DNA of 64,000 nt from an uncultured Spirochaetales bacterium (lineage in GTDB: Bacteria; Myxococcota_A; UBA9160; SMWR01), in NCBI GenBank assembly GCA_964624475.1, contig CAZUYC010000083.1:135792-199791 (forward strand). Direction: 5' to 3'. Positions within the stretch are counted from its first letter, which is position 1, and the number at the start of each line of letters is the position of its first letter. Made by a program: the position numbers and the translations under genes. Below are positions 33,807-62,496 of the stretch, piece after piece. The notes beneath the pieces were generated by a model that was not told the origin of the DNA, ran no database searches, and was given only the letters and a program-made list of their open reading frames with translations.

Positions 33807-33935
33807 CCCGCTGTCTCCATTGCCCCCCCACGGGGCAGAAAATGTTTTCTCACGAGCACGCGGCATTTTTTTTCTCACAATTGCGATGTGCCGGAGAGTA
33901 GGGTGGAGCGGCAACGGACCTTGGAAGGGGATCCC

Positions 33936-42996: not shown

Positions 42997-43021
42997 CCCG
43001 TCCCATGATATCCCGGTTGCT

Positions 43022-49138: not shown

Positions 49139-50197
49139 ATGGATGACGTCGCCCCGTCGATGTGGAGCTCCCTGCCAGCCGAGGCCACCCGCAGCGAGAT
49201 CCGGCGCCGCTACGCGGGCGCCTTCCGCCTCCGCCCGTGGATCTACTGGGCCGACATGCTCGCGTCGGCTGCGATCGGCTGGACGCTATTCCTCGCGGCG
49301 CTCGCCGCTCCACCCGGGTCGCTCGGGCATCTGCTGGCGACGGTCGGGGCGGTCTTCGCCCTGCTGCGGGCGGCGCTCTTCATCCACGAGCTCGCGCACG
49401 TCCGCAGCGGGGACCTGCCCGGGTTCGAGGCGGTGTGGAACCTCCTGGTGGGGATCCCCGTCGCCGTGCCGAGCCTGATGTATGTGGGCTCGCACGCCGA
49501 CCATCACAAGCGCACGGGCTTCGGGACGGACGAGGATCCGGAGTACGCGCCGATCGCCCACTGGAGCCGGGTGCGGATCGCGCTCTTCGTGCTCACGGTC
49601 GCTTTCGTCCCATTCCTCCTGGTGCTGCGCTGGGGCGTGGTGGGCCCCCTCTCGCGCGCGATCCCGCCGCTGCGCGGCTTCGTCGTGCGGCACTGCTCGA
49701 CGCTGATCATCAACGTCCACTACCGGCGGCCGGAGCCGCGCGGTCGGACCGCCGAGCGCTGGGCCTGGCAGGAGGCCGGCGCGGCGCTCGGGGTCTGGAG
49801 CGCGGCCGCCGGATGCGCGCTCGGCTGGATCCCGGTGCACGCGGTCGCCCAATGGTTCACCGTCGCCGCCGGAATCCTGATCGTGAACCAGGTGCGCACG
49901 CTCACCGCGCACCGCTACGAGAACGCCGGCGAGCCGGTCGACAGTCAGGGGCAGCTCCTCGACTCGATCAACCTCACGGGCTGGTCGCCGCTGACCGCGC
50001 TGCTCGCGCCGGTCGGCCTGCGCTACCACGCGCTGCACCATTTCCTGCCGAGCCTGCCCTACCACAGCCTCGGCTTCGTGCACCGCAAGCTCCTCGCCGA
50101 GCTCCCGGACGACGCCCCCTACCGCCAGACGGTGCACGAGAGCGTGCTCGCCCCGCTCCAGAAGCTGTGGCAAAAGGACGCCGTCCGGACGGCCTGA
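49139..50197 (+). CDS. Membrane fatty acid desaturase
   Basis: Three His boxes: HELAHV, HADHHKR, HALHHF. Confidence 0.88.
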   Translation: MDDVAPSMWSSLPAEATRSEIRRRYAGAFRLRPWIYWADMLASAAIGWTLFLAALAAPPGSLGHLLATVGAVFALLRAALFIHELAHVRSGDLPGFEAVWNLLVGIPVAVPSLMYVGSHADHHKRTGFGTDEDPEYAPIAHWSRVRIALFVLTVAFVPFLLVLRWGVVGPLSRAIPPLRGFVVRHCSTLIINVHYRRPEPRGRTAERWAWQEAGAALGVWSAAAGCALGWIPVHAVAQWFTVAAGILIVNQVRTLTAHRYENAGEPVDSQGQLLDSINLTGWSPLTALLAPVGLRYHALHHFLPSLPYHSLGFVHRKLLAELPDDAPYRQTVHESVLAPLQKLWQKDAVRTA

Positions 50198-50362: not shown

Positions 50363-51337
50363 CTACCGGAGCTCGCGGCGGGCGAGGACGCGCCAGAGGA
50401 TCGGCCAGCCGAAGATCAGCGGGTAGCGCCGCTGGCGCTCGCTCGGCTCGATGCGCGTTCCGGTGTGGCGCTCGAGCTTCCAGAGGGCGTACGGGAGCCA
50501 CTCCCCGAAGGTGAACGCGGTCTTCACGAGCTGCGCGGCGTAGGCGGCCTTCGCGGCGGGCCGGCGCAGCCGCCAGCCGGCGCGGGCGCGGCGCCGCGCG
50601 GGGGTCCAGGCGCGGAAGCCCCCGTCCAAGGTTTCGACGCGGAGCTCGCCGCGGCTGCGCTCGGCGAGCTCGCGCAGCGCGCTCGCTCCGGCCCGGTCGT
50701 AGCGGCCGGGGTCGGCCGCGTAGAGCTTCTCGATCGCCGCGTCGGCCTCGGGTCGCATCTCGCCGGCGTAGGTCTCGCGGAAGACGCGCTGCCAGAGCTC
50801 CTCGAAGGCGACGCGCTCGCCCACGGGCAGGAGCGGGAGGACGCGTCGCACGGCGGTCAGGTGCGCCTCCACGACGGCGGCGACCAGCGCCTCGCGGGAG
50901 CTCGCGTCGCGCAGCTGGACCGCGAGCGCGGGCTGGCAGAAGCGCGCCCAGATCCCCGTGCGCAGCCCGCGTCCGGAGGCTCCGCGGGCGAAGTCGGCGA
51001 GCGAGACCACCGCGTACTTGGCGCGCACCGGCTCGCCACCGCGCCGGTCCTCCAGGTAGAAGACGTTCGGCGGCAGGATCGCGTTCGCCAGCGCGAGGCG
51101 GCGCGAGGCGTAGGCCGCGCGGTAGGAATCGACGAGCGCGTAGAAGTCGAGCACACCCTCGGGCGTCGCGCGGCGCAGGCAGGAGCCGTAGAAGACCACG
51201 GCCGCCGTGGTCTCGCCGTGGCGAGCGCGGATCCGGTCGGCGAGGAGCCGAGCCGCCGGAGGCGCCGGGCGAGCCAGCTCGGCCAGCGCGAGCGCGGCGA
51301 GGTCGCGGGCCCCGGCGCCCATCGGCCCGGCCCGCAT
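50363..51337 (-). CDS. Tam41/Mmp37-like protein (putative phosphatidate cytidylyltransferase)
   Basis: Ordered matches to yeast Tam41 blocks as I recall them. VVFYGSCL ~ FGYGSGVF; VLDFYALV ~ QIDIILGV; PPNVFYLE...VRAKYAVVSLADF ~ GVYFNPF...VKYGVVS; IWARFCQPALAV ~ YLAGRLQKPVKI. Confidence 0.6.
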   Translation of the reverse strand: MRAGPMGAGARDLAALALAELARPAPPAARLLADRIRARHGETTAAVVFYGSCLRRATPEGVLDFYALVDSYRAAYASRRLALANAILPPNVFYLEDRRGGEPVRAKYAVVSLADFARGASGRGLRTGIWARFCQPALAVQLRDASSREALVAAVVEAHLTAVRRVLPLLPVGERVAFEELWQRVFRETYAGEMRPEADAAIEKLYAADPGRYDRAGASALRELAERSRGELRVETLDGGFRAWTPARRRARAGWRLRRPAAKAAYAAQLVKTAFTFGEWLPYALWKLERHTGTRIEPSERQRRYPLIFGWPILWRVLARRELR

Positions 51338-51338
51338 C

Positions 51339-52307
51339 CTACGCGCGCAGGAAGGTGAGCCGCCGGTCTCCGCCGAGCGTCACCACCTCGTCGGGGCGGC
51401 TCGCGAAGATCTCGCCGTCGATGGTGAACCCGCTGTCGAAGAGCAGCTGCGCGCGCTCGACCCGCCGGCTCGTGTAGCCGTTCTCGGGGCGCGCGATCGA
51501 TCCCACCCGACCCCGCAGCAGTCCCGGCGCGGCCGCGAGGAAGCGGCGCGCGTCGCTCGCGATGCAGGTGAAGCGCACCGGGCCGGTGCCCGGCCCCCAG
51601 AACGGGTTGATCCGCCAGAAGAGGCGCTCGAGCGAGGTGGCGATCGCCACGTAGAACTCGCCGGCCGCGACGCCCTCGCCGTCGAGCCGGATCTGGATCT
51701 TGTCCGGCTGGACCACGCCCTGGCGCGGGCGAAAGGCCACTCTCGCCATGAGCGCCAGCGTGACGAGGCCCGCCCCGAAGCCGCCCTGGCTGCGTCCGTC
51801 CGGGAAGAGACCGAGCGTCAGGGCGATTGCGCGGCGGATCACGCCCACGCCGAAGAACATCCCGTATTCGCAGCGCCGGCCGCGATCGAGCTCGACCCGC
51901 AGCACCGGCCGCCGGGTGATGCGCGGGGCGAGCCGTCCCGCCCGGGCGTCCTCGATCAGCTCCCGCAGCCCCTTCACCGAGTCGCGCTGGGCGCCGAGGT
52001 CGAGCGCCGTCATGTTGGTACGCCCGCCGCGCAGCGGGGCGATCAACGGCAGCCGGGAGAAGGGCCGCCGCTCCAGGATTTCGGTCAGCGCGTGCTGAAG
52101 CGTTCCATCGCCGCCGTTCACGACCAGGAGGTCGAGGTCGCGCCGCGCCAGCCGGCGGATCGCGGCCGGCAGCAGTACGGCGGAATCCGTCTCCTCGTGC
52201 GCCACCTCGGGGTAGTCGCGCAGGAGCTCGACGACGTCGTCCACCCGGCTCCCCTGCCGGCCCGCGCGCAAGTTGTTCAGGACGCCGATGCGAGGAACGT
52301 CACGCAA
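51339..52307 (-). CDS. Diacylglycerol-kinase-catalytic-domain lipid kinase (YegS/LCB5-like)
   Basis: LLVVNGGDGTLQ and PLRGGRTN motifs. Confidence 0.8.
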   Translation of the reverse strand: MRDVPRIGVLNNLRAGRQGSRVDDVVELLRDYPEVAHEETDSAVLLPAAIRRLARRDLDLLVVNGGDGTLQHALTEILERRPFSRLPLIAPLRGGRTNMTALDLGAQRDSVKGLRELIEDARAGRLAPRITRRPVLRVELDRGRRCEYGMFFGVGVIRRAIALTLGLFPDGRSQGGFGAGLVTLALMARVAFRPRQGVVQPDKIQIRLDGEGVAAGEFYVAIATSLERLFWRINPFWGPGTGPVRFTCIASDARRFLAAAPGLLRGRVGSIARPENGYTSRRVERAQLLFDSGFTIDGEIFASRPDEVVTLGGDRRLTFLRA

Positions 52308-52335
52308 TCGTCGATGGGCTCCCGGGGGTCGGGTT

Positions 52336-53403
52336 CTAGGATCCGGACGCCGATGACGCGAGGGGATTGAGAAAAGTCACCGACGCGATGCCGCTTCCTT
52401 CGAGGTCGAGCGCTGCACGACCCGGCACGGCCTCGAGCCGAAGCAAGAACGACGACTCCGTCCAGACCCTCCTTGGACGCATCGCGAACGATAGCAGGAA
52501 TCGAAACGGCTGCGGTAGAGCCCCGAGGGGATCGTGCGCGAGGAGCTCGCGGCCGAGCGTCAGCCTGCCGGAGAGCCCGGGGCCGCGCAGGCGCAACGCG
52601 GCGGGCACGGGGTAGCCGCGCTCGGGGGTCCCGGGGCGGGCCTCCAGGTCCGCGTGCAGGTCGCTCGTCTCGACGAGCACGCGGCCGTCGTGCACGATGA
52701 TGAGCCACTGATGGCGTTCCCCCCCAGGAGTCGTCACGTCGCGAAGATGGACCTGCGCGCCGGGGTCGAGCGACGAGAAGTCGATCCGGCGCAGGACGAG
52801 ATCGGACTCGCTCCGATCCATCCAGCTGTGGACGAAGGCGGCGCGGCCCTTCATCTCGAGGGGCTCGGCCATGCCCGGAAGCAGCACCGTCCCCTCGATG
52901 GGGGCCGCGAGGTCGAGGAGGTCGACGTGGTACTCCGGCGGTTCTCCGGCGCGTGAGAAGCGCGCCGACGCGTCGGCCTGCAGGCGCAGGCGGATCTCGA
53001 TCCCGCGGCGATTGTTGTCGTACTCGAACGTGCGCACGGGAGCGCGGAGATCGAGCTCGGTCGAGCCGATGCGGAGGCTGCGTCCGCCGTCGCCGACGCT
53101 CCAGCGCCCCTCGAGCCGCCCGTTGCGGAACTCGACGGTCTCCCCGTCGGGCGGGATCAGGTGACCGACGCCGACGGCGGTGCGCTCGCCCGGACCCTCG
53201 TTGGTCACGAGCACGCGCGCGACGAGCCGGTGCCCCTGCTCGAAGCGCGCCACGAGGTCCCAGTACTCGAGCGCCGCGTCGACCCGCGAGAGGCGCGCGC
53301 GAGGGTCGCCGCGCTCGGGCGCCGCTGCGGCGAGCCCGACGGCGAGCGCCGCGAGCAGGAGCGTCCCGCGCGAGGCGAGCTTCGAGCGCCGGTCGTGGCT
53401 CAG
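52336..53403 (-). CDS. Secreted hypothetical protein; candidate CTG start in a CTGA overlap
   Basis: My translation upstream of the track start (GTG 53253) gives an in-frame signal peptide, SHDRRSKLASRGTLLLAALAVGLAAAAPE. That stretch has no ATG, GTG or TTG. CTG 53403..53401 overlaps the TGA of the upstream gene. Confidence 0.55.
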   Translation of the reverse strand: MSHDRRSKLASRGTLLLAALAVGLAAAAPERGDPRARLSRVDAALEYWDLVARFEQGHRLVARVLVTNEGPGERTAVGVGHLIPPDGETVEFRNGRLEGRWSVGDGGRSLRIGSTELDLRAPVRTFEYDNNRRGIEIRLRLQADASARFSRAGEPPEYHVDLLDLAAPIEGTVLLPGMAEPLEMKGRAAFVHSWMDRSESDLVLRRIDFSSLDPGAQVHLRDVTTPGGERHQWLIIVHDGRVLVETSDLHADLEARPGTPERGYPVPAALRLRGPGLSGRLTLGRELLAHDPLGALPQPFRFLLSFAMRPRRVWTESSFLLRLEAVPGRAALDLEGSGIASVTFLNPLASSASGS

Positions 53404-54614
53404 GCAGGTCCCCCGGGTCGCGCCCCGCTCGGACGCGCGGCGGCGGGCGCGTATTCATCGAAGGGGCGCACCCGCTCGCCGCGCGAACGCGCCGCGAAGG
53501 CCTGGCCGATGCGCAGGGCGTGGAAGCCGAGCGAGACCACGGTCCAGAGCGCGACCATCCCGAGGCCGAGATCCGGCCGTCCCCCGACGGTGCCGACGCT
53601 CAAGAGCAGGAGGTTCGGGTTGCGCCGCGCCGTGATCGTGCGGAAGAGCGCGTCGATCGGCCGCCAGCAGTGCATCTCCATGTCGAAGGCGAGCAGGAAG
53701 AGACCCTCCGCGAGACGGCCGACCAGGTAGCCCGCGACGACGATCCACGTCTCCGGGGCGAACGGCGCGCCGAGGCCGAAGCCCCAGGCGAGCCACCAGA
53801 AGGGCGGGTGCAGCAGATCGAGGCTGTGGTCGAGGATGTGGCCGAAGCGGCTCGAGCGCAGCGTCACGCGGGCGAGCTTGCCGTCGACCGTGTCGAGGAA
53901 GGTCATGAGCCAGGCGACGACGAGCCCCGCGCCGAACGAGCCCAGCACGAAGAGCCAGCCGGCCGCGATCGCGAGCACCCAGCTCGCGATCGTGACGGTG
54001 TTCGGCTGGACCCCGCGCTCGGCGAGCCAGCGGGTCGCCGCGCGGGCGGGTCGCGGCCAGACCCACTTCGTCACGAGGTCCGTCGCGCCCTTGTAGGCGG
54101 CGTCGAAGGTGAGCTCCTCGACGCGACGCGCCGTCTCGGGGCGCGCCGGAAGGAGATAGGCGGCCTGATACTTGCGCAGCAGGGCGATGTAGCCGGAGCC
54201 GAGCGCATCGGGCAGGGTGGCGCGCAGGCCGGGGGGAGCGCCGACGCGGCGCTCCCGGATCCACTCGAAGACCTCCGCGAGGCGCCCGGCCTCGACGCAG
54301 GCCGCGACCGGCTCCCCCGGCGCCGCGCCGTTCGCCGCGTCGACGAGCATCGTCCCCGGCGCCTTCGCGAGCGCCTCGACGAGCCGCTCGTCGTAGATCC
54401 GATCCGCGCGCGCGAGCACGCACAGGCCTTCCCCGGGGGCCTCGAGCGCGTCGTCCGGTCCGAGCGTGCGGATCGTGCTGCAGCCGGCGCGGTCGAGCGA
54501 GCGCCGCAGCCGCTCCGTCGGCGAGAGCCCCCAGATCTCGATCGCCGAAGACCCCGGGGTGGTCAGGATCCAGGCGCGGGGGACGCGGCTGCCCGTCGGG
54601 CCAGGGTTCGACAT
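53400..54614 (-). CDS. CDP-alcohol phosphatidyltransferase with an N-terminal nucleotidyltransferase-like domain
   Basis: DTVDGKLARVTLRSSRFGHILDHSLDLL (DG..AR...G...D...D), preceded by a soluble domain of about 130 aa (ILTTPGSSAIEIWGLSPTERLRRSL). Confidence 0.85.
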   Translation of the reverse strand: MSNPGPTGSRVPRAWILTTPGSSAIEIWGLSPTERLRRSLDRAGCSTIRTLGPDDALEAPGEGLCVLARADRIYDERLVEALAKAPGTMLVDAANGAAPGEPVAACVEAGRLAEVFEWIRERRVGAPPGLRATLPDALGSGYIALLRKYQAAYLLPARPETARRVEELTFDAAYKGATDLVTKWVWPRPARAATRWLAERGVQPNTVTIASWVLAIAAGWLFVLGSFGAGLVVAWLMTFLDTVDGKLARVTLRSSRFGHILDHSLDLLHPPFWWLAWGFGLGAPFAPETWIVVAGYLVGRLAEGLFLLAFDMEMHCWRPIDALFRTITARRNPNLLLLSVGTVGGRPDLGLGMVALWTVVSLGFHALRIGQAFAARSRGERVRPFDEYAPAAARPSGARPGGPA

Positions 54615-54704: not shown

Positions 54705-55655
54705 ATGTTCCGCGTGGCGCACCTCACGGATCTGCATGCGACCCCCGCGCGGCCGGCGATCGCCGCCCTGCTCGGCAAGCGCTTCTTCGGCTGGCTCTCC
54801 TGGCAGATCCGACGCCGGCACGCGCACCAGGAGCGCGTGCTCGACGCCCTGGTCGCCGATCTGCAGCGCCAGGCTCCGGATCAGATCGTCGTGACGGGCG
54901 ACCTCACGAACGTGGCGGGGGAGGAGGAGTTCCCGGCCGCCCGCGCCTGGCTCGAGCGCCTCGGTCCCCCGGCGCGCGTCTCGGTCGTGCCGGGCAATCA
55001 CGACGCCTACGTCTTTGTCCCGGCGGAGCGCGGCGTGGCGCTCTGGGGCGACTACATGGAGTCCGACGCCGCCGGCCACGAGGCGCCGCCGCCGGGCGAG
55101 TTCCCGACACTGCGCGTGCGCGGCCCGCTCGCCGTGGTCGGCGTGAGCTCCGCCGTCCCGACGCCGCTCTTCCAGGCCGCGGGCCGCGTCGGCGCGCCCC
55201 AGCTCGCGCGGCTCGAGGCGCTGCTCGCGCGGCTCGGCCGCGCGGGGCTCTTCCGGATGGTCCTGATCCACCATCCGCCGGAGCCCGGGGTCGTGTCGCG
55301 CCGGCGCGAGCTGCGCGACGCCTCGCAGCTGCGCGACGTCTTCGCGCGCGTCGGCGCGGAGCTCGTGCTCCACGGCCACACGCACCGCGCGCGCGTCGGC
55401 GCGCTCGCCGGGCCCGATGGTCCGATCCCCGTGGTCGGCGCCCGCTCCGCGTCGGACGTCGGGCTCCGCCCCGAGAAGCGCGCGCAGTACCACCTCTACG
55501 AGGTTGCCCCCTACGAGGTCGCCCCCTACGAGGTCGAGCCCGGCGCCGCGCAGCCCCCGGGCACGCCCGGCCCGCGCTTCCGGATCCGGATGCGCGTGCG
55601 CGGCTACGACCCGGAGGCGGGTGGGTTCACCGCCGAGGACGAGCGCAGCCTCTGA
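54705..55655 (+). CDS. Calcineurin-like metallophosphoesterase
   Basis: HLTDLH, TGDLTN, GNHD, HHPP, HGHTH motifs. Confidence 0.85.
   Translation: MFRVAHLTDLHATPARPAIAALLGKRFFGWLSWQIRRRHAHQERVLDALVADLQRQAPDQIVVTGDLTNVAGEEEFPAARAWLERLGPPARVSVVPGNHDAYVFVPAERGVALWGDYMESDAAGHEAPPPGEFPTLRVRGPLAVVGVSSAVPTPLFQAAGRVGAPQLARLEALLARLGRAGLFRMVLIHHPPEPGVVSRRRELRDASQLRDVFARVGAELVLHGHTHRARVGALAGPDGPIPVVGARSASDVGLRPEKRAQYHLYEVAPYEVAPYEVEPGAAQPPGTPGPRFRIRMRVRGYDPEAGGFTAEDERSL
55497..55538 (+). repeat. In-frame 15-bp tandem repeat (about 2.8 copies)
   Basis: TACGAGGTYGCCCCC repeats, encoding YEVAPYEVAPYEVEP. Confidence 0.85.
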
Positions 55656-56437
55656 TCCGCGGCGACCAGCTCGCGCGCGAGCGCGAGGTCGTCGGGCTTG
55701 TCCACGTCGACCGCGGCCTCCGGGTAGGGCAGGCGGACGGCCGCGATGCGCGCGCCGATCGCACGCGAGGCGCGCGCGAGCGCAGCGTCGAGCTCGAGCC
55801 GGCGCAGCAGGAAGAGGGCGAGCGCGACCGGCCCGAACGCGGAGACGAGCCGCCACGGGCGCTTGCGGAAGCGCTCGACCCGCACCCAGAACGCAGCGGC
55901 GCGCTGCGCCTCCCGCGTGCGGAAGAGGAAGAGATTCGCCCCCGAGTAGGCGTCGTCGCGGAACGGGATGTAGGTGCGCTTCGATTCGGGGAAGCGCGCG
56001 CGCAGGATGCGCGCGGCGACGAGCCCGACCGCGAGGTCGGCGCCGCTCGCCTCGGCGTCGGCGAGGAATCGCGCGACGATCTGCGGGCGCAGCAGGGCGT
56101 GGTCGGCCGTCGTGACGAGGAGCCTGCGCCCGGGCGGCAGACCCTGGAGCGCGTCGAGGACGCTCCGGCTCGGCGAGGGCAGGCTCCGCTGCACCGCCAG
56201 CTCTCCCTCGCGCACGAGCCCCGCGAGTTCCGGGACCGCCGCGAGCGCCGTCGGCTCCTCGATGCTCACGGTGATCCGGCCCATCCCTGGCGTCGCGCGC
56301 AGCGCGCGCACCACGCGCAGGAGCATCGCCTGCCCGCCCACCTCGAGCAGCGCGCGGTGGCGGGCGCCCTCGGCGCTCGCGAGCGGATCCGCGGGCCCGC
56401 GGCTGCCGGCGAGGACGAGGGCGTCGAGGGGAGGCAA
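55604..56437 (-). CDS. MobA-like nucleotidyltransferase (NTP_transf_3-type)
   Basis: LDALVLAGSRGPADPLA ... TTADHALL. The start is ambiguous. TTG 56437 lies just after the repeats, while GTG 56608 would translate both REP units (SLASGSLRGGSAA twice). Confidence 0.68.
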   Translation of the reverse strand: MPPLDALVLAGSRGPADPLASAEGARHRALLEVGGQAMLLRVVRALRATPGMGRITVSIEEPTALAAVPELAGLVREGELAVQRSLPSPSRSVLDALQGLPPGRRLLVTTADHALLRPQIVARFLADAEASGADLAVGLVAARILRARFPESKRTYIPFRDDAYSGANLFLFRTREAQRAAAFWVRVERFRKRPWRLVSAFGPVALALFLLRRLELDAALARASRAIGARIAAVRLPYPEAAVDVDKPDDLALARELVAADQRLRSSSAVNPPASGS

Positions 56438-56562
56438 GGCGGCGGAGCCGCCGCGCAGCGAGCCGGAGGCGAGCGAAGACCTGCCGGCCTGCTCGTCGTC
56501 GACCGGCCGCCCGCCAGACGAGGCGGCGGAGCCGCCGCGCAGCGAGCCGGAGGCGAGCGAAG
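56438..56562 (+). repeat. Two 41-nt REP-like units (56438..56478 and 56522..56562; period 84)
   Basis: GGCGGCGGAGCCGCCGCGCAGCGAGCCGGAGGCGAGCGAAG occurs twice. Hairpin GGCGGC-GGA-GCCGCC. Confidence 0.88.
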
Positions 56563-56604
56563 GCGGGCCCCCGCTGGGGTGGGTTGCGTTGCGGCCGTTC
56601 GACG

Positions 56605-58317
56605 TCACGCCGAGGCGACCGGCTCGACCCGCGTCGCGTGGTGCTTCTCGATCCGGTAGGTGCGGTCGGCCACGCCGAGGAGCGCCGGCTGGTGCGAGAT
56701 CGCGACGACCGTGGTCTTGCCGCGCAGCTCGGCCACGGTGGCCCAGACGGCGGCCTCCGCCTCGGGGTCGAGCGCGGCGGTGGCCTCGTCGAGGATCAGG
56801 AGCTTCGGGCGGTGCACCAGCGCGCGCGCAATCGCGATGCGCTGGCGCTGCCCCCCGGAGAGGAGCGCGCCGCGCTCTCCGACCGCAGCGGCGAGGCCCT
56901 CGGACCGGGCGGCCACGAAGTCGAGGGCGCCCGCGTCGCGCAGCGCCCGCTCCACGTCCGCGTCGTCGAGCGTCGGGTCGCCGAGCGTCACGTTGGTCCG
57001 GATCGTGTCGTTGAAGAGCAGCGTCTCCTGGGTCACGTAGCCGACCGAGCGCCGCCAGCGGCGCAGGTCGAGCCCCTCGAGCGGGACTCCGTCGACGAAG
57101 ACCCGGCCCGCGTCGGGCCGCACGAGGCCCGTCACGAGGTCCACGATCGTCGTCTTGCCGGCCCCGGACGCGCCGACGATCGCGGTGATCGAGCCGCGCG
57201 GGATCTCGAGGTCGAGCCCATCGAAGACCGGGGTGCCGTCGTAGGCGAGGCGCACGTCGCGCAGCTCGATCGAGCGCTCGAGCGTCGGCTCGCGACCCCC
57301 GCCCGCCACCTCGACTTCACGCTCCGCGCTCTCGATCATGCGCCGCATCGCCTCGAGCGCGCTCTCGTCGACGGCGAGATCCTGCACCTTGCGCTGCATC
57401 TTGTGGATCGCGAGGAGCATGCGCGCGAAGAGCAGGACGAGCACGATCAGCGACGCGGGCGGGATCGCGAGCATCCGGTGTCCGATCCACAGCCCGGTCA
57501 TGCCGAAGAGGACCAGGACGGGCTCCTGGAGCGCGCGCAGCGACTCCTTGGAGAGCACCTGCTTGCGCAGGGCCTTGTTGAGGCGCTGCGCGTCCTTCTC
57601 GAGCAGCGGCCCGACGAGCGTGTCCCGCCCGGTCGCCTTGAGGAGCTTGAGCGCCTGCAGCGCGTCGGTGAGCTGGCGCACGAGCGAGCGCAGCACGGTG
57701 GTCTGCTTCAGGCCGGCGCGCTTCGTCATGCGCACGAAGACGTTCAGCACGGCGATCGTGAACGCCCCGGCCGCCGAGGCTGCGAGCGTCACCCGCCAGG
57801 AGATGGCGCTGGCGATGACCATCGCGAAGAGCACCTCGAAGGCGCCGGAGAGGACCTGGGCGAGGTAGTGGTAGGCCTGTGCCGCGCGCGTGGCCTCGGA
57901 GGCCATCGCGTTGGGCGCGAGCCCGAGGGGCAACCGCGCGTAGTAGCTCCAGCGTGAGGCGAGTAGCGCGCGCAAAAGGCCGAGGCGCAGGTCGGTCGCC
58001 ACCTGGGCCACCATGTACCCGACGCGCCGGTTCGAGAGCAGGAGCAGACCGGCCTTGATCGGGAAGACCAGGCACACGAAGGCGACCAGCACCTCGACCG
58101 TCGGCTCCAGGCCGACGAGTGCGAAGGCCTCGGCGACGCGGGACTCGAATCCGCCGGCCGCGGCGGGGCCGGCCCCGTCGCCGCGCAGCACGAGGCCGAG
58201 GAGCGGGACGACGGCGCTGAGCCCGAGCCCCTCGAGGAGCCCGGCGGCGAAGAGGCAGCAGAGGACGGTGACGCTCTGCCAGGGATAGCGGCGTGTGAAG
58301 TAGCGAAGGGTTTCCAT
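56605..58317 (-). CDS. ABC transporter, fused permease/ATPase (MsbA-like exporter)
   Basis: Six-TM N-terminal half. Walker A GASGAGKTT, signature LSGGQRQRIAIARAL, Walker B LLILDEAT. Confidence 0.92.
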   Translation of the reverse strand: METLRYFTRRYPWQSVTVLCCLFAAGLLEGLGLSAVVPLLGLVLRGDGAGPAAAGGFESRVAEAFALVGLEPTVEVLVAFVCLVFPIKAGLLLLSNRRVGYMVAQVATDLRLGLLRALLASRWSYYARLPLGLAPNAMASEATRAAQAYHYLAQVLSGAFEVLFAMVIASAISWRVTLAASAAGAFTIAVLNVFVRMTKRAGLKQTTVLRSLVRQLTDALQALKLLKATGRDTLVGPLLEKDAQRLNKALRKQVLSKESLRALQEPVLVLFGMTGLWIGHRMLAIPPASLIVLVLLFARMLLAIHKMQRKVQDLAVDESALEAMRRMIESAEREVEVAGGGREPTLERSIELRDVRLAYDGTPVFDGLDLEIPRGSITAIVGASGAGKTTIVDLVTGLVRPDAGRVFVDGVPLEGLDLRRWRRSVGYVTQETLLFNDTIRTNVTLGDPTLDDADVERALRDAGALDFVAARSEGLAAAVGERGALLSGGQRQRIAIARALVHRPKLLILDEATAALDPEAEAAVWATVAELRGKTTVVAISHQPALLGVADRTYRIEKHHATRVEPVASA

Positions 58318-58416: not shown

Positions 58417-60603
58417 CTAGGCCACTCCTCCCGGCTCCGGTATCCCCAGTAGCGCCCGCACGCGGCTCGCCACGGCGAGCGCGTCGCGCAGCGGCTCCTG
58501 GCTCCCGCTGGAGCCGGGCGTCGCGCTCACACCCATCCCGGGGGTCCCGAACGCGGGGGTCCCGAACGCCTGCGCGAGCCCGCGACGCGCGAGCTCTGCG
58601 TGGAGCAGGCGGAGATCGCGCGCGGGCCGGACGAAGCCCCGCTCGACGAGGCGTCCGCACAGGCGTTCGAGCCCGCGCTGCGGCCCGGGGGTCCCGCGCG
58701 GCCCCGCGGGTCGCTTCTCGGCGCGCGCGCGGACGAGGTCGCGCGGCCAGCGCAGGACCCCGAAGCTCCGGCGCTCGGCCAGCGGGTAGACCAGGACCGG
58801 CTTCCCGGTCGACGCCGCCTCGGCGAGCATCGACTCGGAGTCGGCCGTGACCACGATCCGGTCGGCCCAGGCGAGGAGCCCCAGATACGGGTTCTCCCCG
58901 GGATCGCCGGCCCGGTAGACGAGGGCGTGCGGGCCGAGCGCGGCGCAGAAGGCAAGGACGGCGGCGCGCCCGGTGCGCCGGCTCGTCGTCGCGAGGAGCG
59001 ATCCGCCGAGCTCGTGCGCCATGCGGGCCACGTCGGCGCCGAGGCGCCCCGCCTGCACGGCGTCGATCCGGTACTGGCCCGAGCTTCCCCCGACCAGGAT
59101 CGCGATCCGCGGCGCGGCGAGCGAGGCGAAGCGCGCGCGCCAGCGTTCGCGGGCCTCGGCGATCCGGGCAGGCGTCACGGAGTGAAGGGGTGCGCAGGTC
59201 TCGATCCGCCGCGGGTGGGGGAAGAGCCGGCAGTAGGCGGGGGTCGCGACGAGGTCGAAGAGCTCCGCCGCGTCGCCGCCTTTGCGGCCGAGCTGGACCA
59301 CGCGCGTGCGGCCGCGGCTGCGCACGCGGATCCACAGCGCAGCGGGGGCGGTGCGCCTGCCCGCCGCGATCACCAGGTCGGGCCACGGGGGCTCGAGCGC
59401 GTCGGAGCCCGCCCGGCCGAACCCCGCCCGGCTCGCGCCGAGGATCCGATTGTGGACCAGGGAGAGCGGCCCCGGCCGGAGGGACTTGCGCTCGTAGGGC
59501 CAGCCCAGCGCCTCGGCCAGGCCGATCGACTGGGTCGAGTTCCCGCCGCGATCGTCGGTCAGGATCCAGACGCGAGGCGGGGATCCGTCGGGCCGGGGGC
59601 CGCCCGCGCGCTCGCTGCGGGCGCCGTCGGCCGACGTGAGGATCGCCTCCCAGCGCGCGCCGGTGTGCGCCCGCGCGACCGCCTCGATCCGCTCGATCCA
59701 CCACTCGGGCGTCCGCGCGGGCTCCACGGCCGCGTTCCGCGGTCGCGCCGCTTCGCACGCGATCTCGATCCGCACGCCGGGGCCCGGGCTGCGGAAGATC
59801 TCGTCGAGCCGCCAGGGCAGGTCGTCCGTGGGGGTCGCCTCGAGGCGAGGCTCGGCTGCGCCCCCGCGGTAGCGGGGGCTCGGCTGCTCGCGCGTGAAGA
59901 CCCGGTACCCCCGAAGGTCGGCCTCTGCCTCGAGCCCGAGCCACAGCGGCGCATGGGGGTTCGGCTGGTAGACGAAGCGTTCGGGAAAGGGCCGCCACGG
60001 CTGGGTGTGGAGCGTCGTGTAGTGGAGGCACTTCGAGAGGCCGGGGACGTACTCCTCGTCGCGCGCGTTCCACTCCGGGGGGAGGCGGCCGCGGAGGCCG
60101 GGGACGCCGAGCGCGCGCCGGACGAGCTCGGCCTTGGACTCCCGCCGGGCGGCGTCTAGCGTCCAGACCGAGGTCATCCGGGCGCAGTCGAGGAGCATCA
60201 CCGAGGGGTCGTCCGGGGCCACGCTCAGGAACCCGTGGCCCCCGAGGTCGGCGTCGAAGAGCTCCGCGGGGTCGGCCAGGTAGATCTGGTCGACGTCGTT
60301 GTAGAGGGCGCGACCGGATCCCCCGGCGAAGTGGGGAATCGCGAAGCGGTAGTTGGTGAATCCGGTGGTCCAGCCGCGGCGCTGGAATCCCGATAGGCCC
60401 TTCAGGAGCCAGATCTCGTAGCGGCGGGAGGGGTTTCGGACGCGCTCGACGGACCAGAAGAAGACGCGCTCGGCGCGCTGCTGCGCCGCCTCGGAACCGA
60501 GGAAGATGCGCACGGGAGGACGGGAATCGGGGCGGGAGCCCGGGCGGACCTCGAGCACGACCCGCTCTGGTTCGGAGCGATCCTCGCCGCCTGTGGCCCT
60601 CAT
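58417..60603 (-). CDS. Fusion of a GT8-like glycosyltransferase domain and an ELM1/DUF1022-like domain
   Basis: N-terminal part: RALYNDVDQIYLADP (DxD), HYTTLHTQPW. C-terminal part: VWILTDDRGGNSTQSIGLAEALGWP, AILVGGSSG, VTADSESMLAEA. The start (ATG 60603 or TTG 60666) is uncertain. Confidence 0.7.
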   Translation of the reverse strand: MRATGGEDRSEPERVVLEVRPGSRPDSRPPVRIFLGSEAAQQRAERVFFWSVERVRNPSRRYEIWLLKGLSGFQRRGWTTGFTNYRFAIPHFAGGSGRALYNDVDQIYLADPAELFDADLGGHGFLSVAPDDPSVMLLDCARMTSVWTLDAARRESKAELVRRALGVPGLRGRLPPEWNARDEEYVPGLSKCLHYTTLHTQPWRPFPERFVYQPNPHAPLWLGLEAEADLRGYRVFTREQPSPRYRGGAAEPRLEATPTDDLPWRLDEIFRSPGPGVRIEIACEAARPRNAAVEPARTPEWWIERIEAVARAHTGARWEAILTSADGARSERAGGPRPDGSPPRVWILTDDRGGNSTQSIGLAEALGWPYERKSLRPGPLSLVHNRILGASRAGFGRAGSDALEPPWPDLVIAAGRRTAPAALWIRVRSRGRTRVVQLGRKGGDAAELFDLVATPAYCRLFPHPRRIETCAPLHSVTPARIAEARERWRARFASLAAPRIAILVGGSSGQYRIDAVQAGRLGADVARMAHELGGSLLATTSRRTGRAAVLAFCAALGPHALVYRAGDPGENPYLGLLAWADRIVVTADSESMLAEAASTGKPVLVYPLAERRSFGVLRWPRDLVRARAEKRPAGPRGTPGPQRGLERLCGRLVERGFVRPARDLRLLHAELARRGLAQAFGTPAFGTPGMGVSATPGSSGSQEPLRDALAVASRVRALLGIPEPGGVA

Positions 60604-60730
60604 CTCGCGCGGCGATTCTACCGACCCGCAGGCAAAGGGGATGCGCAGGGTGTCGAGCGCCGGCAACGGCGGTGACCGGGGTCACAGAAACGTGTGTGGT
60701 GAAAAAACCTCGCCCAAAAGGGGGAGGGGC

Positions 60731-61728: not shown

Positions 61729-62496
61729 TCAGCGCCCCGCGACCGCCCGCGGCTGCCGCAGGGCGACTGGACCGCGCAGGCTCTCCCGAGCCTCCTCGAG
61801 GTCCTCGCGGGAGTCGATCTCGCGCCACCACATGCCGCGGATCGAGGCGGTCTCGACGCCGCCCTCGGCTGCCAGGCCGTCGATGACTGAGAGATACCAG
61901 GCGCGGAGCGCCTCCGGCCGGCGCATCGCGTGCTCGACGGCGCTCCGGAAGCGGCGCACGCCGGGGCCGCGGAAGAGCAGGACCCCGATCGACTCGCCGT
62001 GCACGACCTCGGGCTTGAGCGTCTTGCTGATCGCGAGCAGGCGCCCATCGTCGTCGAGCGACACCTTCATGTCGTCGTCGTCGTAGGCGGGCTTGTGATC
62101 GATCGTCACGGTGACCGGGGCGGCGGGCGACCCGAGCAGTCGGCGCAGCACCGTCGGCTCGAAGAGGGTGTCGCCGTTCAGCAGCACGAAGTCCTCGCTC
62201 ATGGCCTCGCGTACGACCCAGCAGGTCGCGAGGTTGTCGCTCGCGGCGTAGAAGGGGTTGAAGACGAGGTCCACCGCGAGCCCCGGCAGCGCTGCCCCCG
62301 CGAGGAAGCGCTCGACCCGGTCCACGCCGAAGCCCGAGACGACGCTCACCCGGGTGATCCCGCAGCGCGCGAGTGTGGCGAGTTGGTACTCGAGCACCGA
62401 TTTCTCCCCGTCGACGGCGAGCAGGCACTTCGGGATCTCGGCGGTCAGGGGCAGCAGCCGCTTGCCCTGGCCGGCGCTCAGCACGATGGCTCTCAT
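61729..62496 (-). CDS. Nucleotidyltransferase (LicC/COG1213-type cytidylyltransferase-like)
   Basis: MRAIVLSAGQGKRLLPLTAEIPKCLL, LLNGDTLF. Confidence 0.8.
   Translation of the reverse strand: MRAIVLSAGQGKRLLPLTAEIPKCLLAVDGEKSVLEYQLATLARCGITRVSVVSGFGVDRVERFLAGAALPGLAVDLVFNPFYAASDNLATCWVVREAMSEDFVLLNGDTLFEPTVLRRLLGSPAAPVTVTIDHKPAYDDDDMKVSLDDDGRLLAISKTLKPEVVHGESIGVLLFRGPGVRRFRSAVEHAMRRPEALRAWYLSVIDGLAAEGGVETASIRGMWWREIDSREDLEEARESLRGPVALRQPRAVAGR

What the first reader, a model, noticed from the sequence alone, without database searches (positions are those of the whole stretch)
50363..54614. Four-gene operon pairing a Tam41/Mmp37-like protein with a DAGK-like lipid kinase and a CDP-alcohol phosphatidyltransferase
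Four minus-strand genes are packed with a CTGA overlap, a 28-nt gap and a 1-nt gap:
- A CDP-alcohol phosphatidyltransferase carrying an extra N-terminal nucleotidyltransferase-like domain.
- A secreted protein of unknown function.
- A DAGK-catalytic-domain lipid kinase (NGGDGT).
- A protein whose conserved blocks line up in order with eukaryotic mitochondrial Tam41, the non-CdsA CDP-diacylglycerol synthase.

Inferred pathway: lipid kinase makes phosphatidate, the Tam41-like enzyme makes CDP-DAG, and the CDP-alcohol transferase adds the head group. This would be a self-contained phospholipid route independent of CdsA. To my knowledge bacterial Tam41 homologues in such an operon are not functionally described.

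The neighbours fit a dedicated envelope-lipid locus: metallophosphoesterase, MobA-like and LicC-like nucleotidyltransferases, MsbA-like exporter, GT8-ELM1 fusion, kdsA and lptFG.
Basis: partly seen in the sequence, partly recalled or inferred. Interest (0 to 1): 0.65.

Follow-up and report, generated by a model that had tools for sequence, protein, structure and literature searches.

The report
Sphingolipid head-group operon (cpgABC-like)
The four genes are real and the last one is a distant Tam41 relative, but the operon is most likely the Myxococcota version of the Caulobacter cpgABC genes that build anionic phospho-sphingolipids for the outer membrane, so it is a new member of a recently described system and not an unknown phospholipid pathway.

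Summary
Four tightly packed minus-strand genes encode a CDP-alcohol phosphotransferase, an exported protein, a DAGK-family lipid kinase and a Tam41-like protein.

The Tam41 link is real but remote:
- The window protein has no direct Pfam hit.
- Its five best matches among solved structures are all Tam41.
- 29 of 128 family members hit PF09139.
- The family profile's top PDB hit is S. pombe Tam41.

The kinase-Tam41-like gene pair is conserved in 73 of 76 related loci.

- Gene order and families match Caulobacter cpgA-cpgB-cpgC. CpgB is a proven ceramide kinase. CpgC (CC_1161) was already reported to carry the Tam41/Mmp37 domain.
- Nine genes here match one-to-one a Pseudomonas plasmid cluster that also holds spt, acpR, cerR and an acyl-AMP ligase.
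- 29 of 82 related loci have spt and cerR next door, including Binatia loci with the identical four-gene order.

New points: the lineage (Myxococcota/Binatia), an inserted exported AttH-like protein, and natural kinase-CpgC fusions. CpgC's chemistry (CDP-ceramide?) is still untested anywhere. No spt lies in this window.

The parts
50363..51337 (-). g1: Tam41/Mmp37-like nucleotidyltransferase of the CpgC (CC_1161) family. 324 aa, or 319 aa from the ATG at 51322.
   Evidence: No direct Pfam hit. The AF2 model has pLDDT 88 and its top five PDB hits are Tam41. 29 of 128 family members hit PF09139. The family profile's top PDB hit is Tam41 6ig2 at 1.5e-4. 36% identity (E 1.8e-55) to the protein that follows the kinase gene in the Pseudomonas pPNP1 sphingolipid cluster.
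51339..52307 (-). g2: DAGK_cat/LCB5-family lipid kinase, CpgB-like (probably a ceramide kinase).
   Evidence: DAGK_cat 7.2e-9. NGGDGT motif. Lies immediately upstream of g1 homologues in 73 of 76 loci. 31% identity (E 1.3e-24) to the kinase of the pPNP1 cluster. A natural kinase-g1 fusion exists, P0218.
52336..53403 (-). g3: exported AttH/CrtC-like double beta-barrel protein. 355 aa if it starts at the CTG at 53403; annotated elsewhere as 305 aa from the GTG at 53253.
   Evidence: The signal peptide and invariant residues lie upstream of the GTG and are conserved in 38 homologues. AF2 pLDDT 91. Foldseek top hits are AttH 2ich (3e-12), Diels-Alderases, kievitone hydratase and 25-phosphosteroid lyase. 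Present in 29 of 68 related loci.
53400..54614 (-). g4: CDP-alcohol phosphotransferase, CpgA-like, with a cytoplasmic N-terminal domain of about 190 aa.
   Evidence: CDP-OH_P_transf 4.5e-10. Signature motif intact. Closest PDB sequences are PIP synthase, AF2299 and IPCT-DIPPS. 45% identity (E 2.6e-89) to the pPNP1 CDP-alcohol transferase. The N-terminal domain is only weakly NTase-like.
54705..55655 (+). Divergent metallophosphoesterase, CC_1158-like. 90-bp intergenic region shared with g4.
   Evidence: Metallophos 4.8e-14. Start read from the sequence. Present near g1 homologues in 60 of 68 loci. 31% identity to the pPNP1 metallophosphoesterase.
55604..56608 (-). MobA/CofC-like nucleotidyltransferase, CC_1153-like.
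   Evidence: NTP_transf_3 4.6e-12. CofC 1.3e-5. 41% identity (E 5e-54) to the pPNP1 nucleotidyltransferase. A natural fusion with g1 exists, P0132.
56605..58317 (-). MsbA/HepA-like ABC exporter; candidate lipid flippase.
   Evidence: NCBIfam HepA 5.7e-78 and MsbA 2.2e-66, both below their family cut-offs. 40% identity (E 3e-97) to the pPNP1 ABC transporter.
58417..60666 (-). ELM1/GtrOC1-family putative glycosyltransferase with an unassigned N-terminal half of 370 aa.
   Evidence: Mito_fiss_Elm1 1.3e-65 at residues 375-632. The N-terminal half has no Pfam or PDB hit. 40% identity over 709 aa to the pPNP1 ELM1 protein.
61729..62496 (-). LicC/IMPCT-like cytidylyltransferase, CpgD-like (CTP:phosphoglycerate cytidylyltransferase in Caulobacter).
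   Evidence: NCBIfam NTP-transferase hits, including the IPCT domain. PDB LicC 4.5e-11 and IMPCT 4jd0 3e-8. 49% identity (E 2e-76) to the pPNP1 'phosphocholine cytidylyltransferase family protein'. CpgD biochemistry: PMC12275187.
62702..64000 (+). LptF/LptG-family permease; runs off the end of the window. Possibly the sphingolipid-transport counterpart of LptF2/G2.
   Evidence: LptF_LptG 1.4e-59. A fused LptFG of about 760 aa sits at the same place in relatives. LptF2/G2 role: bioRxiv 10.64898/2026.04.12.717747.
49139..50197 (+). Fatty-acid-desaturase-family membrane protein, convergent with g1. Possibly a ceramide desaturase or hydroxylase.
   Evidence: FA_desaturase 3e-27. Sits in the same position in Myxococcota and Binatia loci, and in L010 lies between g1 and the cerR/spt/GNAT genes.

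Best explanation
The operon is the Myxococcota counterpart of Caulobacter cpgA-cpgB-cpgC, with an extra exported AttH-like gene inserted between cpgA and cpgB. Together with its neighbours it builds and exports an anionic phosphosphingolipid of the ceramide phosphoglycerate (CPG/CPG2) type.

Proposed steps:
1. [quoted passage not shown] This activity is shown for CpgB in Caulobacter and inferred here.
2. The Tam41-like g1 activates ceramide-1-phosphate with CTP to a CDP-ceramide-type intermediate. That intermediate is resolved to ceramide-phospho-glycerate. This is inferred from the fold and motifs, was proposed in 2024, and has never been shown.
3. The LicC-like enzyme makes CDP-glycerate. 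This is shown for CpgD and inferred here.
4. The CDP-alcohol transferase g4 uses CDP-glycerate to add a further phosphoglycerate. This rests on genetics in Caulobacter and is inferred here.
5. The MobA-like nucleotidyltransferase and the metallophosphoesterase assist the second step. The ABC exporter and LptFG move the lipid to the outer membrane. The exported AttH-like protein binds or modifies it in the periplasm. This last role is speculative.

The identity of the head group in this lineage is not established.
For: Same families in the same order as cpgA-cpgB-cpgC:
- The published descriptions are a PgsA-type CDP-alcohol transferase, an LCB5/DAGK kinase, and a protein with the Tam41/Mmp37 InterPro domain (PMC9393093; PMC11324152 and its S1 text).
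- The order in A. vinelandii and P. luteola is given in S2 of that paper.

All six Caulobacter head-group genes have a counterpart of the same family within 12 kb here (CC_1161, 1160, 1159, 1158, 1153, 1152), as do the ABC-type and LptFG transport genes.

Nine window proteins match one-to-one, at 24-49% identity, the genes of the Pseudomonas sp. JS425 plasmid cluster. That cluster also encodes Spt, AcpR, CerR and an acyl-AMP ligase.

Spt-like and CerR-like genes lie within 8 kb of the g1 homologue in 29 of 82 loci. These include:
- cultured Dongia soli;
- Binatia L010, which has the identical order g4-g3-g2-g1-desaturase followed by CerR-like, Spt-like and GNAT genes.

The kinase-g1 adjacency holds in 73 of 76 loci, and natural kinase-g1 and MobA-g1 fusions exist.

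g1 has the Tam41 fold and the Tam41 motifs YGS...D, KYxV, RFxQP and YxxExR..E.
Against: - No spt, acpR, cerR or bcerS homologue lies in the 64-kb window, or within about 10 kb of the operon in the closest Myxococcota relatives. Ceramide supply in this organism is therefore assumed.
- I could not compare directly with the Caulobacter protein sequences. The link runs through published family descriptions and through Pseudomonas-plasmid and Sphingomonadales homologues.
- A PlsB-like GPAT and a WS/DGAT lie in the window, so a glycerolipid substrate is not excluded.
- The closest characterised relatives of g4 are inositol-phosphate-using enzymes, so the head group may differ.
- A 2026 preprint states that Myxococci carry a single lptFG.
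Confidence: 0.72

Rival explanations
1. This is a CdsA-independent glycerophospholipid route: the kinase makes phosphatidate from diacylglycerol, the Tam41-like enzyme makes CDP-diacylglycerol, and the CDP-alcohol transferase adds a head group.
For: - Tam41 enzymes, including a bacterial one, make CDP-DAG from phosphatidate (PMC7018664; PMC11646218).
- The DAGK_cat family includes true DAG kinases.
- The best characterised relatives of g4 are PIP synthases, which consume CDP-DAG.
- No spt lies in the window.
- A PlsB-like GPAT and a WS/DGAT are nearby.
Against: - The locus corresponds one-to-one to clusters that embed spt, acpR and cerR.
- spt/cerR adjacency occurs in 29 of 82 loci.
- In Caulobacter, the cpgB mutant keeps ceramide but loses ceramide phosphate, and CpgB is a proven ceramide kinase (PMC9393093; PMC12275187).
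- 24 of 68 loci lack the CDP-alcohol transferase that this model needs.
Confidence: 0.12
2. Same sphingolipid logic but a different head group. The LicC-like enzyme makes CDP-inositol or another CDP-alcohol, and g4 builds a ceramide-phospho-inositol-type or glycosylated lipid. The ELM1-family protein then extends it.
For: - g4's best family matches are archaetidylinositol-phosphate and PIP synthases, and IPCT-DIPPS.
- The LicC-like protein matches the IPCT domain and IMPCT 4jd0.
- A large ELM1-family putative glycosyltransferase is conserved in the cluster.
Against: - All these matches fall far below the family cut-offs.
- Caulobacter CpgD also has IMPCT as its nearest structure, yet it makes CDP-glycerate (PMC12275187).
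- No inositol-1-phosphate synthase was found among the window genes that were scanned.
Confidence: 0.12
3. The operon modifies LPS or lipid A, or a Kdo-containing glycolipid, and not a separate membrane lipid.
For: - kdsA and lptFG are adjacent.
- An MsbA-like exporter is present.
- LpxH is a metallophosphoesterase (my own knowledge).
Against: - kdsA adjacency is limited to a minority of loci, mostly Myxococcota.
- LptFG paralogues and ABC exporters are documented parts of sphingolipid loci (PMC11324152).
- No lipid A biosynthesis gene was detected in the cluster.
Confidence: 0.03

Closest known systems
Caulobacter crescentus phosphosphingolipid locus: cpgA/B/C (CCNA_01217-01219 = CC_1159-1161) plus CC_1158, CC_1153, CpgD (CC_1152), LptF2/G2 and CC_1166
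   Same: The order is the same: CDP-alcohol transferase, then DAGK/LCB5 kinase, then Tam41-domain protein. The accessory set is the same: phosphoesterase, MobA/CofC-like and LicC/IMPCT-like nucleotidyltransferases, ABC exporter and LptFG.
   Different: - The lineage is Myxococcota. Published comparisons covered alpha-, beta- and gamma-proteobacteria, with delta only mentioned.
- An exported AttH-like gene is inserted between cpgA and cpgB.
- An ELM1-family protein is present, whereas Caulobacter has the TagF-like CC_1167.
- kdsA lies inside the locus.
- No spt, acpR, cerR or bcerS lies within 64 kb.
- No HIT protein or LptC2 was seen.
Tam41/TAMM41 (PF09139), the mitochondrial CDP-diacylglycerol synthase, and Firmicutes Tam41 (PDB 6IG2/6IG4, 7ECD)
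   Same: - It is the nearest solved fold: a nucleotidyltransferase domain plus a winged-helix domain.
- The motifs are shared.
- As reported for Tam41, a single acidic residue of the nucleotidyltransferase core is invariant.
- A helical C-terminal extension is present.
(PMC7018664; PMC11646218)
   Different: - Identity is only 10-14%, and the window protein itself misses the Pfam model.
- A very strongly conserved C-terminal block (TFGDWLPYALWKLERHTG) is specific to this family.
- The genomic context points to ceramide-1-phosphate as substrate, not phosphatidate.
AF2299 and IPCT-DIPPS (PDB 4O6M, 4MND): CDP-alcohol phosphotransferases with an N-terminal cytidylyltransferase-like domain
   Same: g4 has a soluble N-terminal domain followed by the transmembrane CDP-alcohol transferase domain with an intact signature motif. 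Sequence matches are at 6e-7 and 5e-4.
   Different: The N-terminal domain of g4 has no Pfam hit. It lacks the GxGxR motif when read by eye. Its profile match to LicC-like enzymes is weak.
AttH / CrtC-type double lipocalin-like beta-barrel proteins (PDB 2ICH, kievitone hydratase, 25-phosphosteroid lyase)
   Same: The predicted fold of g3 matches these proteins (E 3e-12, TM about 0.6). The characterised members act on or bind hydrophobic substrates.
   Different: g3 has no sequence-family match. It carries a signal peptide. It is embedded in a sphingolipid head-group operon, and no function is known in that context.

Membership tests
Tam41/Mmp37 (PF09139 / IPR015222) | Significant match of the protein itself to the Pfam model | tested here: not met
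   No hit at E <= 0.1 for window 50363-51337.
Tam41/Mmp37 (PF09139 / IPR015222) | Homology detectable through the family (transitive or profile level) | tested here: met
   29 of 128 members hit PF09139 at E <= 0.1. The best is P0163 at 2.1e-8 and 34.3 bits, above the cut-off of 24. The family profile's top PDB hit is Tam41 6ig2 at E 1.5e-4.
Tam41/Mmp37 (PF09139 / IPR015222) | Nucleotidyltransferase plus winged-helix fold resembling solved Tam41 | tested here: met
   The Foldseek top five hits are all Tam41 (E 3.5e-7 to 4.5e-6, TM 0.51-0.60 normalised to the target). The next-best family has TM about 0.3.
Tam41/Mmp37 (PF09139 / IPR015222) | Conserved Tam41 motifs (YGS...D, KYGV, GRFQKP, YxGDxR..AE) | tested here: met
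   These motifs align with invariant G51/S52, D64, K107, R132, Q135, E193, R195 and E197 of the family.
Tam41/Mmp37 (PF09139 / IPR015222) | CTP:phosphatidate cytidylyltransferase activity | not testable with these tools
   Needs an enzyme assay or complementation.
CpgC (CC_1161/CCNA_01219) phosphosphingolipid family | Gene lies directly downstream of a DAGK/LCB5-family kinase gene (cpgB) | tested here: met
   1-nt gap in the window. 73 of 76 related loci.
CpgC (CC_1161/CCNA_01219) phosphosphingolipid family | Carries the Tam41/Mmp37 domain and no other known domain; about 290-320 aa | tested here: met
   See the Tam41 rows above. The published description of CC_1161 is in PMC11324152 S1 text.
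CpgC (CC_1161/CCNA_01219) phosphosphingolipid family | Genomic linkage to ceramide synthesis genes (spt, cerR, acpR, aasR, bcerS) | tested here: inconclusive
   Absent from the 64-kb window and from the closest Myxococcota loci. Present in 29 of 82 related loci and in the pPNP1 cluster.
CpgC (CC_1161/CCNA_01219) phosphosphingolipid family | Direct sequence similarity to Caulobacter CC_1161 | not tested
Indirect links are 36% identity to the pPNP1 homologue and 32.5% to a Sphingomonadales homologue.
CpgC (CC_1161/CCNA_01219) phosphosphingolipid family | Required to convert ceramide-1-phosphate to ceramide phosphoglycerate | not testable with these tools
   Needs genetics and lipidomics.
CpgB / DAGK_cat lipid kinases | DAGK catalytic domain with the GGDGT motif | tested here: met
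   PF00781 7.2e-9. VVNGGDGTL in the translation.
CpgB / DAGK_cat lipid kinases | Ceramide (as opposed to DAG) specificity | not testable with these tools
   Only context is available: 31% identity to the kinase of a cluster that contains spt.
CpgA / CDP-alcohol phosphotransferases (PF01066) | Pfam match and the D(x)2DG(x)2AR(x)8G(x)3D(x)3D signature | tested here: met
   PF01066 4.5e-10. The motif is LDTVDGKLARVTLRSSRFGHILDHSLD.
   No Pfam hit at E <= 1. hhalign against the LicC-like family gives probability 45% and E 2.2e-4 over 26 columns. A sub-threshold local match to the AF2299 N-terminal domain was seen.
AttH/CrtC-like lipocalin-type beta-barrel proteins | Double beta-barrel fold | tested here: met
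   Foldseek 2ich 3.1e-12, TM 0.61/0.66. Model pLDDT 90.8.
AttH/CrtC-like lipocalin-type beta-barrel proteins | Sequence-family membership (Pfam CrtC/Lipocalin_9) | tested here: not met
   No family is recurrently hit among 39 members.

The most novel reading that the evidence does not exclude
CpgC-family Tam41-like enzymes make CDP-ceramide, a liponucleotide not mentioned in any paper of the searched library. This would found a sphingolipid counterpart of the CDP-diacylglycerol pathway.

The module is far more widespread than reported. It was confirmed at 583 places in a collection holding one genome per species. These span Myxococcota, Binatia, Desulfobacterota, Neomarinimicrobiota, and alpha- and gammaproteobacteria.

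In Myxococcota and Binatia the module has recruited an exported AttH-like protein as a new periplasmic handling or modifying step.
Probability: 0.35. Interest if true: 0.65.

Novelty: new member of a known kind. Interest (0 to 1): 0.3.

Why it matters
Anionic phosphosphingolipids can partly replace LPS in the Caulobacter outer membrane and determine its polymyxin and colistin sensitivity.

This analysis shows that the same head-group module, with its kinase-CpgC core, exists in Myxococcota, Binatia and several other phyla. That widens the range of bacteria expected to make such lipids.

It also sharpens the one open biochemical step, which is how ceramide-1-phosphate becomes ceramide phosphoglycerate. 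Support comes from the fold, the motifs and the natural fusions, all pointing to a Tam41-type cytidylyl transfer.

The practical gain is modest, because both the gene family and the hypothesis are already published.

Tried and rejected
Searches that found nothing or were not informative:
- Direct Pfam and NCBIfam searches of g1 and g3 found nothing.
- The narrow profile A1 found no Tam41 in the PDB. The broader profile A2 did.
- L001 (CP070734.1) showed no conserved neighbourhood. Its gene calls are fragmentary and spaced about 100 nt apart, so I set it aside as uninformative.

Ideas considered and dropped:
- That the divergent metallophosphoesterase is a PlcP-type phospholipase C feeding DAG into a head-group exchange. 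I had no PlcP sequence to test this, and the CC_1158 correspondence explains the gene better.
- An inositol route. No inositol-1-phosphate synthase was found among the scanned window genes.

Attempts that failed:
- Extending beyond the window to look for spt. The source assembly's own g1 protein (P0001) is not on record, and the LicC-like protein is found only on contigs under 2 kb.
- Reaching a Caulobacter homologue through a Sphingomonadales query. Only close Erythrobacteraceae were listed.
- The Tam41 structure papers (Jiao 2019, Kimura 2022) are not held. Residue-level roles in Tam41 could therefore not be cited.

Full report
**1. Observation**

The window has about 73% G+C.

Four minus-strand ORFs sit where the finding says:
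- g4 runs from 53400 to 54614.
- g3 runs from 52336 to 53253 if it starts at the first canonical start codon, a GTG.
- g2 runs from 51339 to 52307 and starts at a TTG.
- g1 runs from 50363 to 51337.

The junctions are as described:
- The TGA of g4 (53402-53400) overlaps a CTG at 53403.
- 28 nt separate g3 and g2.
- 1 nt separates g2 and g1.

Family checks:
- Pfam gives CDP-OH_P_transf for g4 (4.5e-10). Its signature motif is intact.
- Pfam gives DAGK_cat for g2 (7.2e-9), and the translation contains NGGDGT.

g3 needs the non-canonical start.
- Its 38 aligned homologues are 333-404 aa long (most 340-385).
- All carry an N-terminal hydrophobic signal sequence, followed by a conserved PERGDPxARLS...EYWD block.
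- That block lies upstream of the GTG in the window.
- No ATG, GTG or TTG exists between it and the previous stop.
- The public annotation of 305 aa (P0271) is therefore probably truncated.

**2. Is g1 Tam41-like?**

The window protein has no Pfam, NCBIfam or PDB sequence hit. Four lines of evidence nevertheless establish a remote relationship.

- Structure.
  - An AlphaFold model built on 41 homologues has pLDDT 88.4 and pTM 0.85.
  - It shows a nucleotidyltransferase core, a helical domain with a beta-hairpin, and C-terminal helices.
  - Its five best Foldseek matches in the PDB are all Tam41: S. pombe 6IG4/6IG2 and Firmicutes 7ECD.
  - These score E 3.5e-7 to 4.5e-6, with TM 0.51-0.60 normalised to the target.
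  - Aminoglycoside nucleotidyltransferases follow at TM about 0.3.
- Pfam across the family.
  - Of 128 diverse family members, 29 hit PF09139 Tam41_Mmp37 at E <= 0.1.
  - No other family recurs beyond four weak hits to the generic Polbeta nucleotidyltransferase domain.
  - One member exceeds the gathering score (2.1e-8, 34.3 bits).
- Profile search. The 128-sequence profile has S. pombe Tam41 as its top PDB hit (E 1.5e-4).
- Motifs.
  - The aligned motifs are KYaV~KYGV, WARFaQP~LAGRFQKPV and tYraElR..aE~SYLGDIRMSFAAEN. A sub-threshold stretch of the same alignment also pairs YGS...D with YGS...D.
  - These coincide with the family's invariant residues: G51, D64, K107, R132, Q135, E193, R195 and E197.

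**3. Size and spread of the family**

- A profile search of 1.84 billion representative proteins found 1519 clusters at E <= 0.001.
- The hosts include Myxococcota, Candidatus Binatia, Dongiaceae (including cultured Dongia soli D78), Rhodospirillaceae, Kiloniellaceae, several Gammaproteobacteria, Desulfobacterota and Neomarinimicrobiota.

**4. Neighbourhood conservation**

I compared 82 loci by tblastn. Each denominator counts only loci with enough flanking sequence to judge.

| Neighbour of the g1 homologue | Loci |
|---|---|
| DAGK-like gene immediately upstream, same strand | 73 of 76 |
| Metallophosphoesterase nearby | 60 of 68 |
| CDP-alcohol transferase within 3 kb upstream | 44 of 68 |
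| g3 | 29 of 68 |
| MobA-like nucleotidyltransferase | 35 of 52 |

- The core is the kinase-g1 pair with the phosphoesterase. g4 and g3 are accessory.
- Natural fusions exist:
  - P0218 joins DAGK_cat to a g1-like domain (662 aa).
  - P0132 joins a MobA-like NTP_transf_3 domain to a g1-like domain (594 aa).

**5. What the locus really corresponds to**

The turning point was Dongia soli (L061). There the cluster phosphoesterase / CDP-alcohol transferase / kinase / g1 is followed by three further genes:
- a class I/II aminotransferase;
- an NAD-dependent epimerase-family reductase;
- an AMP-binding enzyme.

This trio resembles bacterial Spt, CerR and the acyl-ACP synthetase.

Related loci show the same link:
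- Spt-like and CerR-like genes lie within 8 kb of the g1 homologue in 29 of 82 loci.
- In the Binatia chromosome locus L010 the order is CDP-OH / g3-like / DAGK / g1-like / FA_desaturase. This is the order found in the window.
- In L010 that block is followed directly by a sphingomyelinase-type Exo_endo_phos gene, an Epimerase (CerR-like), an Aminotran_1_2 (Spt-like) and a GNAT (bCerS-like).

The literature describes this system in Caulobacter crescentus:
- CCNA_01217 (CpgA) has a PgsA-type CDP-alcohol transferase domain and is needed for CPG to CPG2.
- CCNA_01218 (CpgB) is an LCB5/DAGK-type kinase, later shown to be a ceramide kinase.
- CCNA_01219 (CpgC) had 'no conserved domains' and is needed for ceramide-1-phosphate to CPG (PMC9393093; PMC12275187).

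Olea-Ozuna et al. 2024 (PMC11324152) added:
- CC_1161 (CpgC) carries InterPro IPR015222 (Tam41/Mmp37). [quoted passage not shown]
- CC_1158 is a phosphoesterase.
- CC_1153 is a MobA/CofC-like nucleotidyltransferase.
- CC_1152 is a second nucleotidyltransferase.
- LptC2/F2/G2 and a flippase are proposed to export the lipid.

Later work:
- CC_1152 (CpgD) was shown to make CDP-glycerate (PMC12275187).
- LptF2/G2 were shown to be required when CPG2 is made (bioRxiv 10.64898/2026.04.12.717747).

Every one of these roles has a same-family counterpart in the window within 12 kb. The order cpgA-cpgB-cpgC equals g4-(g3)-g2-g1.

**6. Direct sequence support**

The Pseudomonas sp. JS425 plasmid pPNP1 carries a cluster (L086) annotated with:
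- an aminotransferase (Spt);
- a phosphopantetheine-binding protein;
- an NAD-dependent epimerase/dehydratase;
- a fatty acyl-AMP ligase;
- a nucleotidyltransferase;
- LptF and LptG;
- an acylglycerol kinase family protein;
- a hypothetical protein;
- a metallophosphoesterase;
- an ELM1/GtrOC1 glycosyltransferase;
- a CDP-alcohol phosphatidyltransferase;
- a phosphocholine cytidylyltransferase family protein.

BLASTP pairs the window proteins with them one-to-one:

| Window protein | Identity | E-value |
|---|---|---|
| g1 | 36% | 1.8e-55 |
| g2 | 31% | 1.3e-24 |
| g4 | 45% | 2.6e-89 |
| Metallophosphoesterase | 31% | 2e-15 |
| MobA-like | 41% | 5e-54 |
| ABC exporter | 40% | 3e-97 |
| ELM1 protein | 40% | 2.9e-137 |
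| LicC-like | 49% | 2e-76 |
| LptF (weak) | 24% | 2e-8 |

I could not obtain the Caulobacter sequences themselves. Orthology to CC_1161 is therefore inferred through these intermediates and through the published family descriptions.

**7. The other two parts of the operon**

g3:
- Its model has pLDDT 90.8.
- It has the AttH/CrtC-type double beta-barrel fold. The top hit is AttH 2ICH at 3e-12.
- Decalin-forming Diels-Alderases, kievitone hydratase and 25-phosphosteroid lyase follow.
- With its signal peptide, it is an exported protein with a fold typical of proteins that bind or act on hydrophobic substrates.
- Its role here is unknown. A periplasmic carrier or modifier is my speculation.

g4:
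- Its closest solved relatives by sequence are PIP synthases, AF2299 and IPCT-DIPPS.
- The claimed nucleotidyltransferase nature of its N-terminal 190 residues is only weakly supported.

**8. Mechanism, and what is shown versus inferred**

Shown elsewhere:
- CpgB is a ceramide kinase.
- CpgD makes CDP-glycerate.
- Genetics places CpgC between ceramide-1-phosphate and CPG, and places CpgA, CC_1153 and CpgD between CPG and CPG2.

Shown here:
- g1 has the Tam41 fold and motifs.
- The kinase-g1 pair is the conserved core and is sometimes fused.
- The module is physically linked to ceramide synthesis genes in many lineages.

Inferred:
- g1 transfers CMP from CTP to the phosphate of ceramide-1-phosphate, giving a CDP-ceramide.
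- This intermediate appears in no paper of the searched library.
- CpgC's mechanism was still called 'unidentified' in May 2026.

Open question:
- It is not known which enzyme resolves such an intermediate with glycerate.
- The CDP-alcohol transferase is the obvious chemical candidate. However, Caulobacter genetics, and its absence from 24 of 68 loci, argue that it is not required for that step.

**9. Caveats**

- The window and the nearest Myxococcota loci contain no spt, acpR or cerR.
- The window holds glycerolipid genes: a PlsB-like GPAT and a WS/DGAT.
- The head group is not established.

**10. Verdict**

The enzymology is of the right type, the lipid is probably wrong, and the system is not undescribed.
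- This is a new member of a known kind. Modest variant features are the AttH-like insertion, the ELM1 protein and the Myxococcota/Binatia lineage.

Noticed in passing
window 56432-56485 and 56516-56569: A 54-nt direct repeat (91% identical, 84 nt start to start) lies inside the 5' end of the MobA-like ORF. It encodes SLASGSLRGGSAA twice. The ORF here is 334 aa against 278-286 aa in relatives, so this looks like a recent local duplication or an over-extended start.
   Followed up: partly
window 52336-53403: g3 appears to need a CTG start that overlaps the g4 stop. The public annotation (P0271, 305 aa from the GTG at 53253) cuts off the conserved signal peptide and several invariant residues. 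A close homologue (P0272) is also called with a Leu start.
   Followed up: yes
window 58417-60666: The N-terminal 370 aa of the ELM1-family protein match no Pfam family (E <= 1) and no PDB sequence. This half is nevertheless conserved at 40% identity in the Pseudomonas plasmid homologue. The 'GT8' label rests only on DxD-like and HxxxxxxPW-like motifs read by eye.
   Followed up: partly
P0218 (662 aa) and P0132 (594 aa), from the representative-protein search: Natural fusions of the g1 family exist: one with a DAGK_cat kinase and one with a MobA-like NTP_transf_3 domain. Longer proteins with unassigned extra regions also occur (P0270 at 751 aa, P0204 at 505 aa).
   Followed up: partly
L086 (Pseudomonas sp. 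JS425 plasmid pPNP1, NZ_CP073662.1 60820-85626): A nearly complete sphingolipid synthesis, head-group and LptFG cluster sits on an IncP plasmid. An IS5 transposase lies inside the cluster, and a class 1 integron with sul1 lies next to it. This suggests the module moves horizontally. Homologues also occur on Roseomonas, Diaphorobacter and Qipengyuania plasmids.
   Followed up: partly
L069 1671-8799 (uncultured gammaproteobacterium); also L055, L059, L068: A variant cluster lacks any CDP-alcohol transferase. Its order is MobA-like / metallophosphoesterase / kinase / g1-like / ELM1 / GT2 / FkbM methyltransferase / SGNH hydrolase. The product there may be a different, glycosylated lipid.
   Followed up: partly
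L010 10115-11155 (Candidatus Binatia OZ246887.1): An Exo_endo_phos (neutral-sphingomyelinase-type) gene sits between the desaturase and the cerR/spt/GNAT genes. It is a possible phosphosphingolipid turnover enzyme.
   Followed up: no
window 40612-44461: A PlsB-like GPAT ORF of 963 aa has its acyltransferase domain starting only at residue 442. On the opposite strand it overlaps a 650-aa ORF whose ABHD18-like hydrolase domain also starts late. At least one of the two starts is over-extended. The GPAT is syntenic in relatives (794 aa in L004).
   Followed up: no
window 3282-24976: The left part of the window is rich in lipid and isoprenoid genes: a carboxylesterase, an acyl-CoA ligase, a P450, two UbiA prenyltransferases, a WS/DGAT wax-ester/triacylglycerol synthase and a DUF1295 steroid-reductase-like protein.
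   Followed up: no
window 33888-34454: A small CHRD-domain protein has a C-terminal PEP-CTERM sorting signal. This implies an exosortase system in this organism.
   Followed up: no
L001 (CP070734.1, 1780293-1801261): Gene calls are short fragments of unrelated genes, spaced about 100 nt apart. The 'chromosome' looks like concatenated contigs, and the g1 homologue there shows no conserved context.
   Followed up: no
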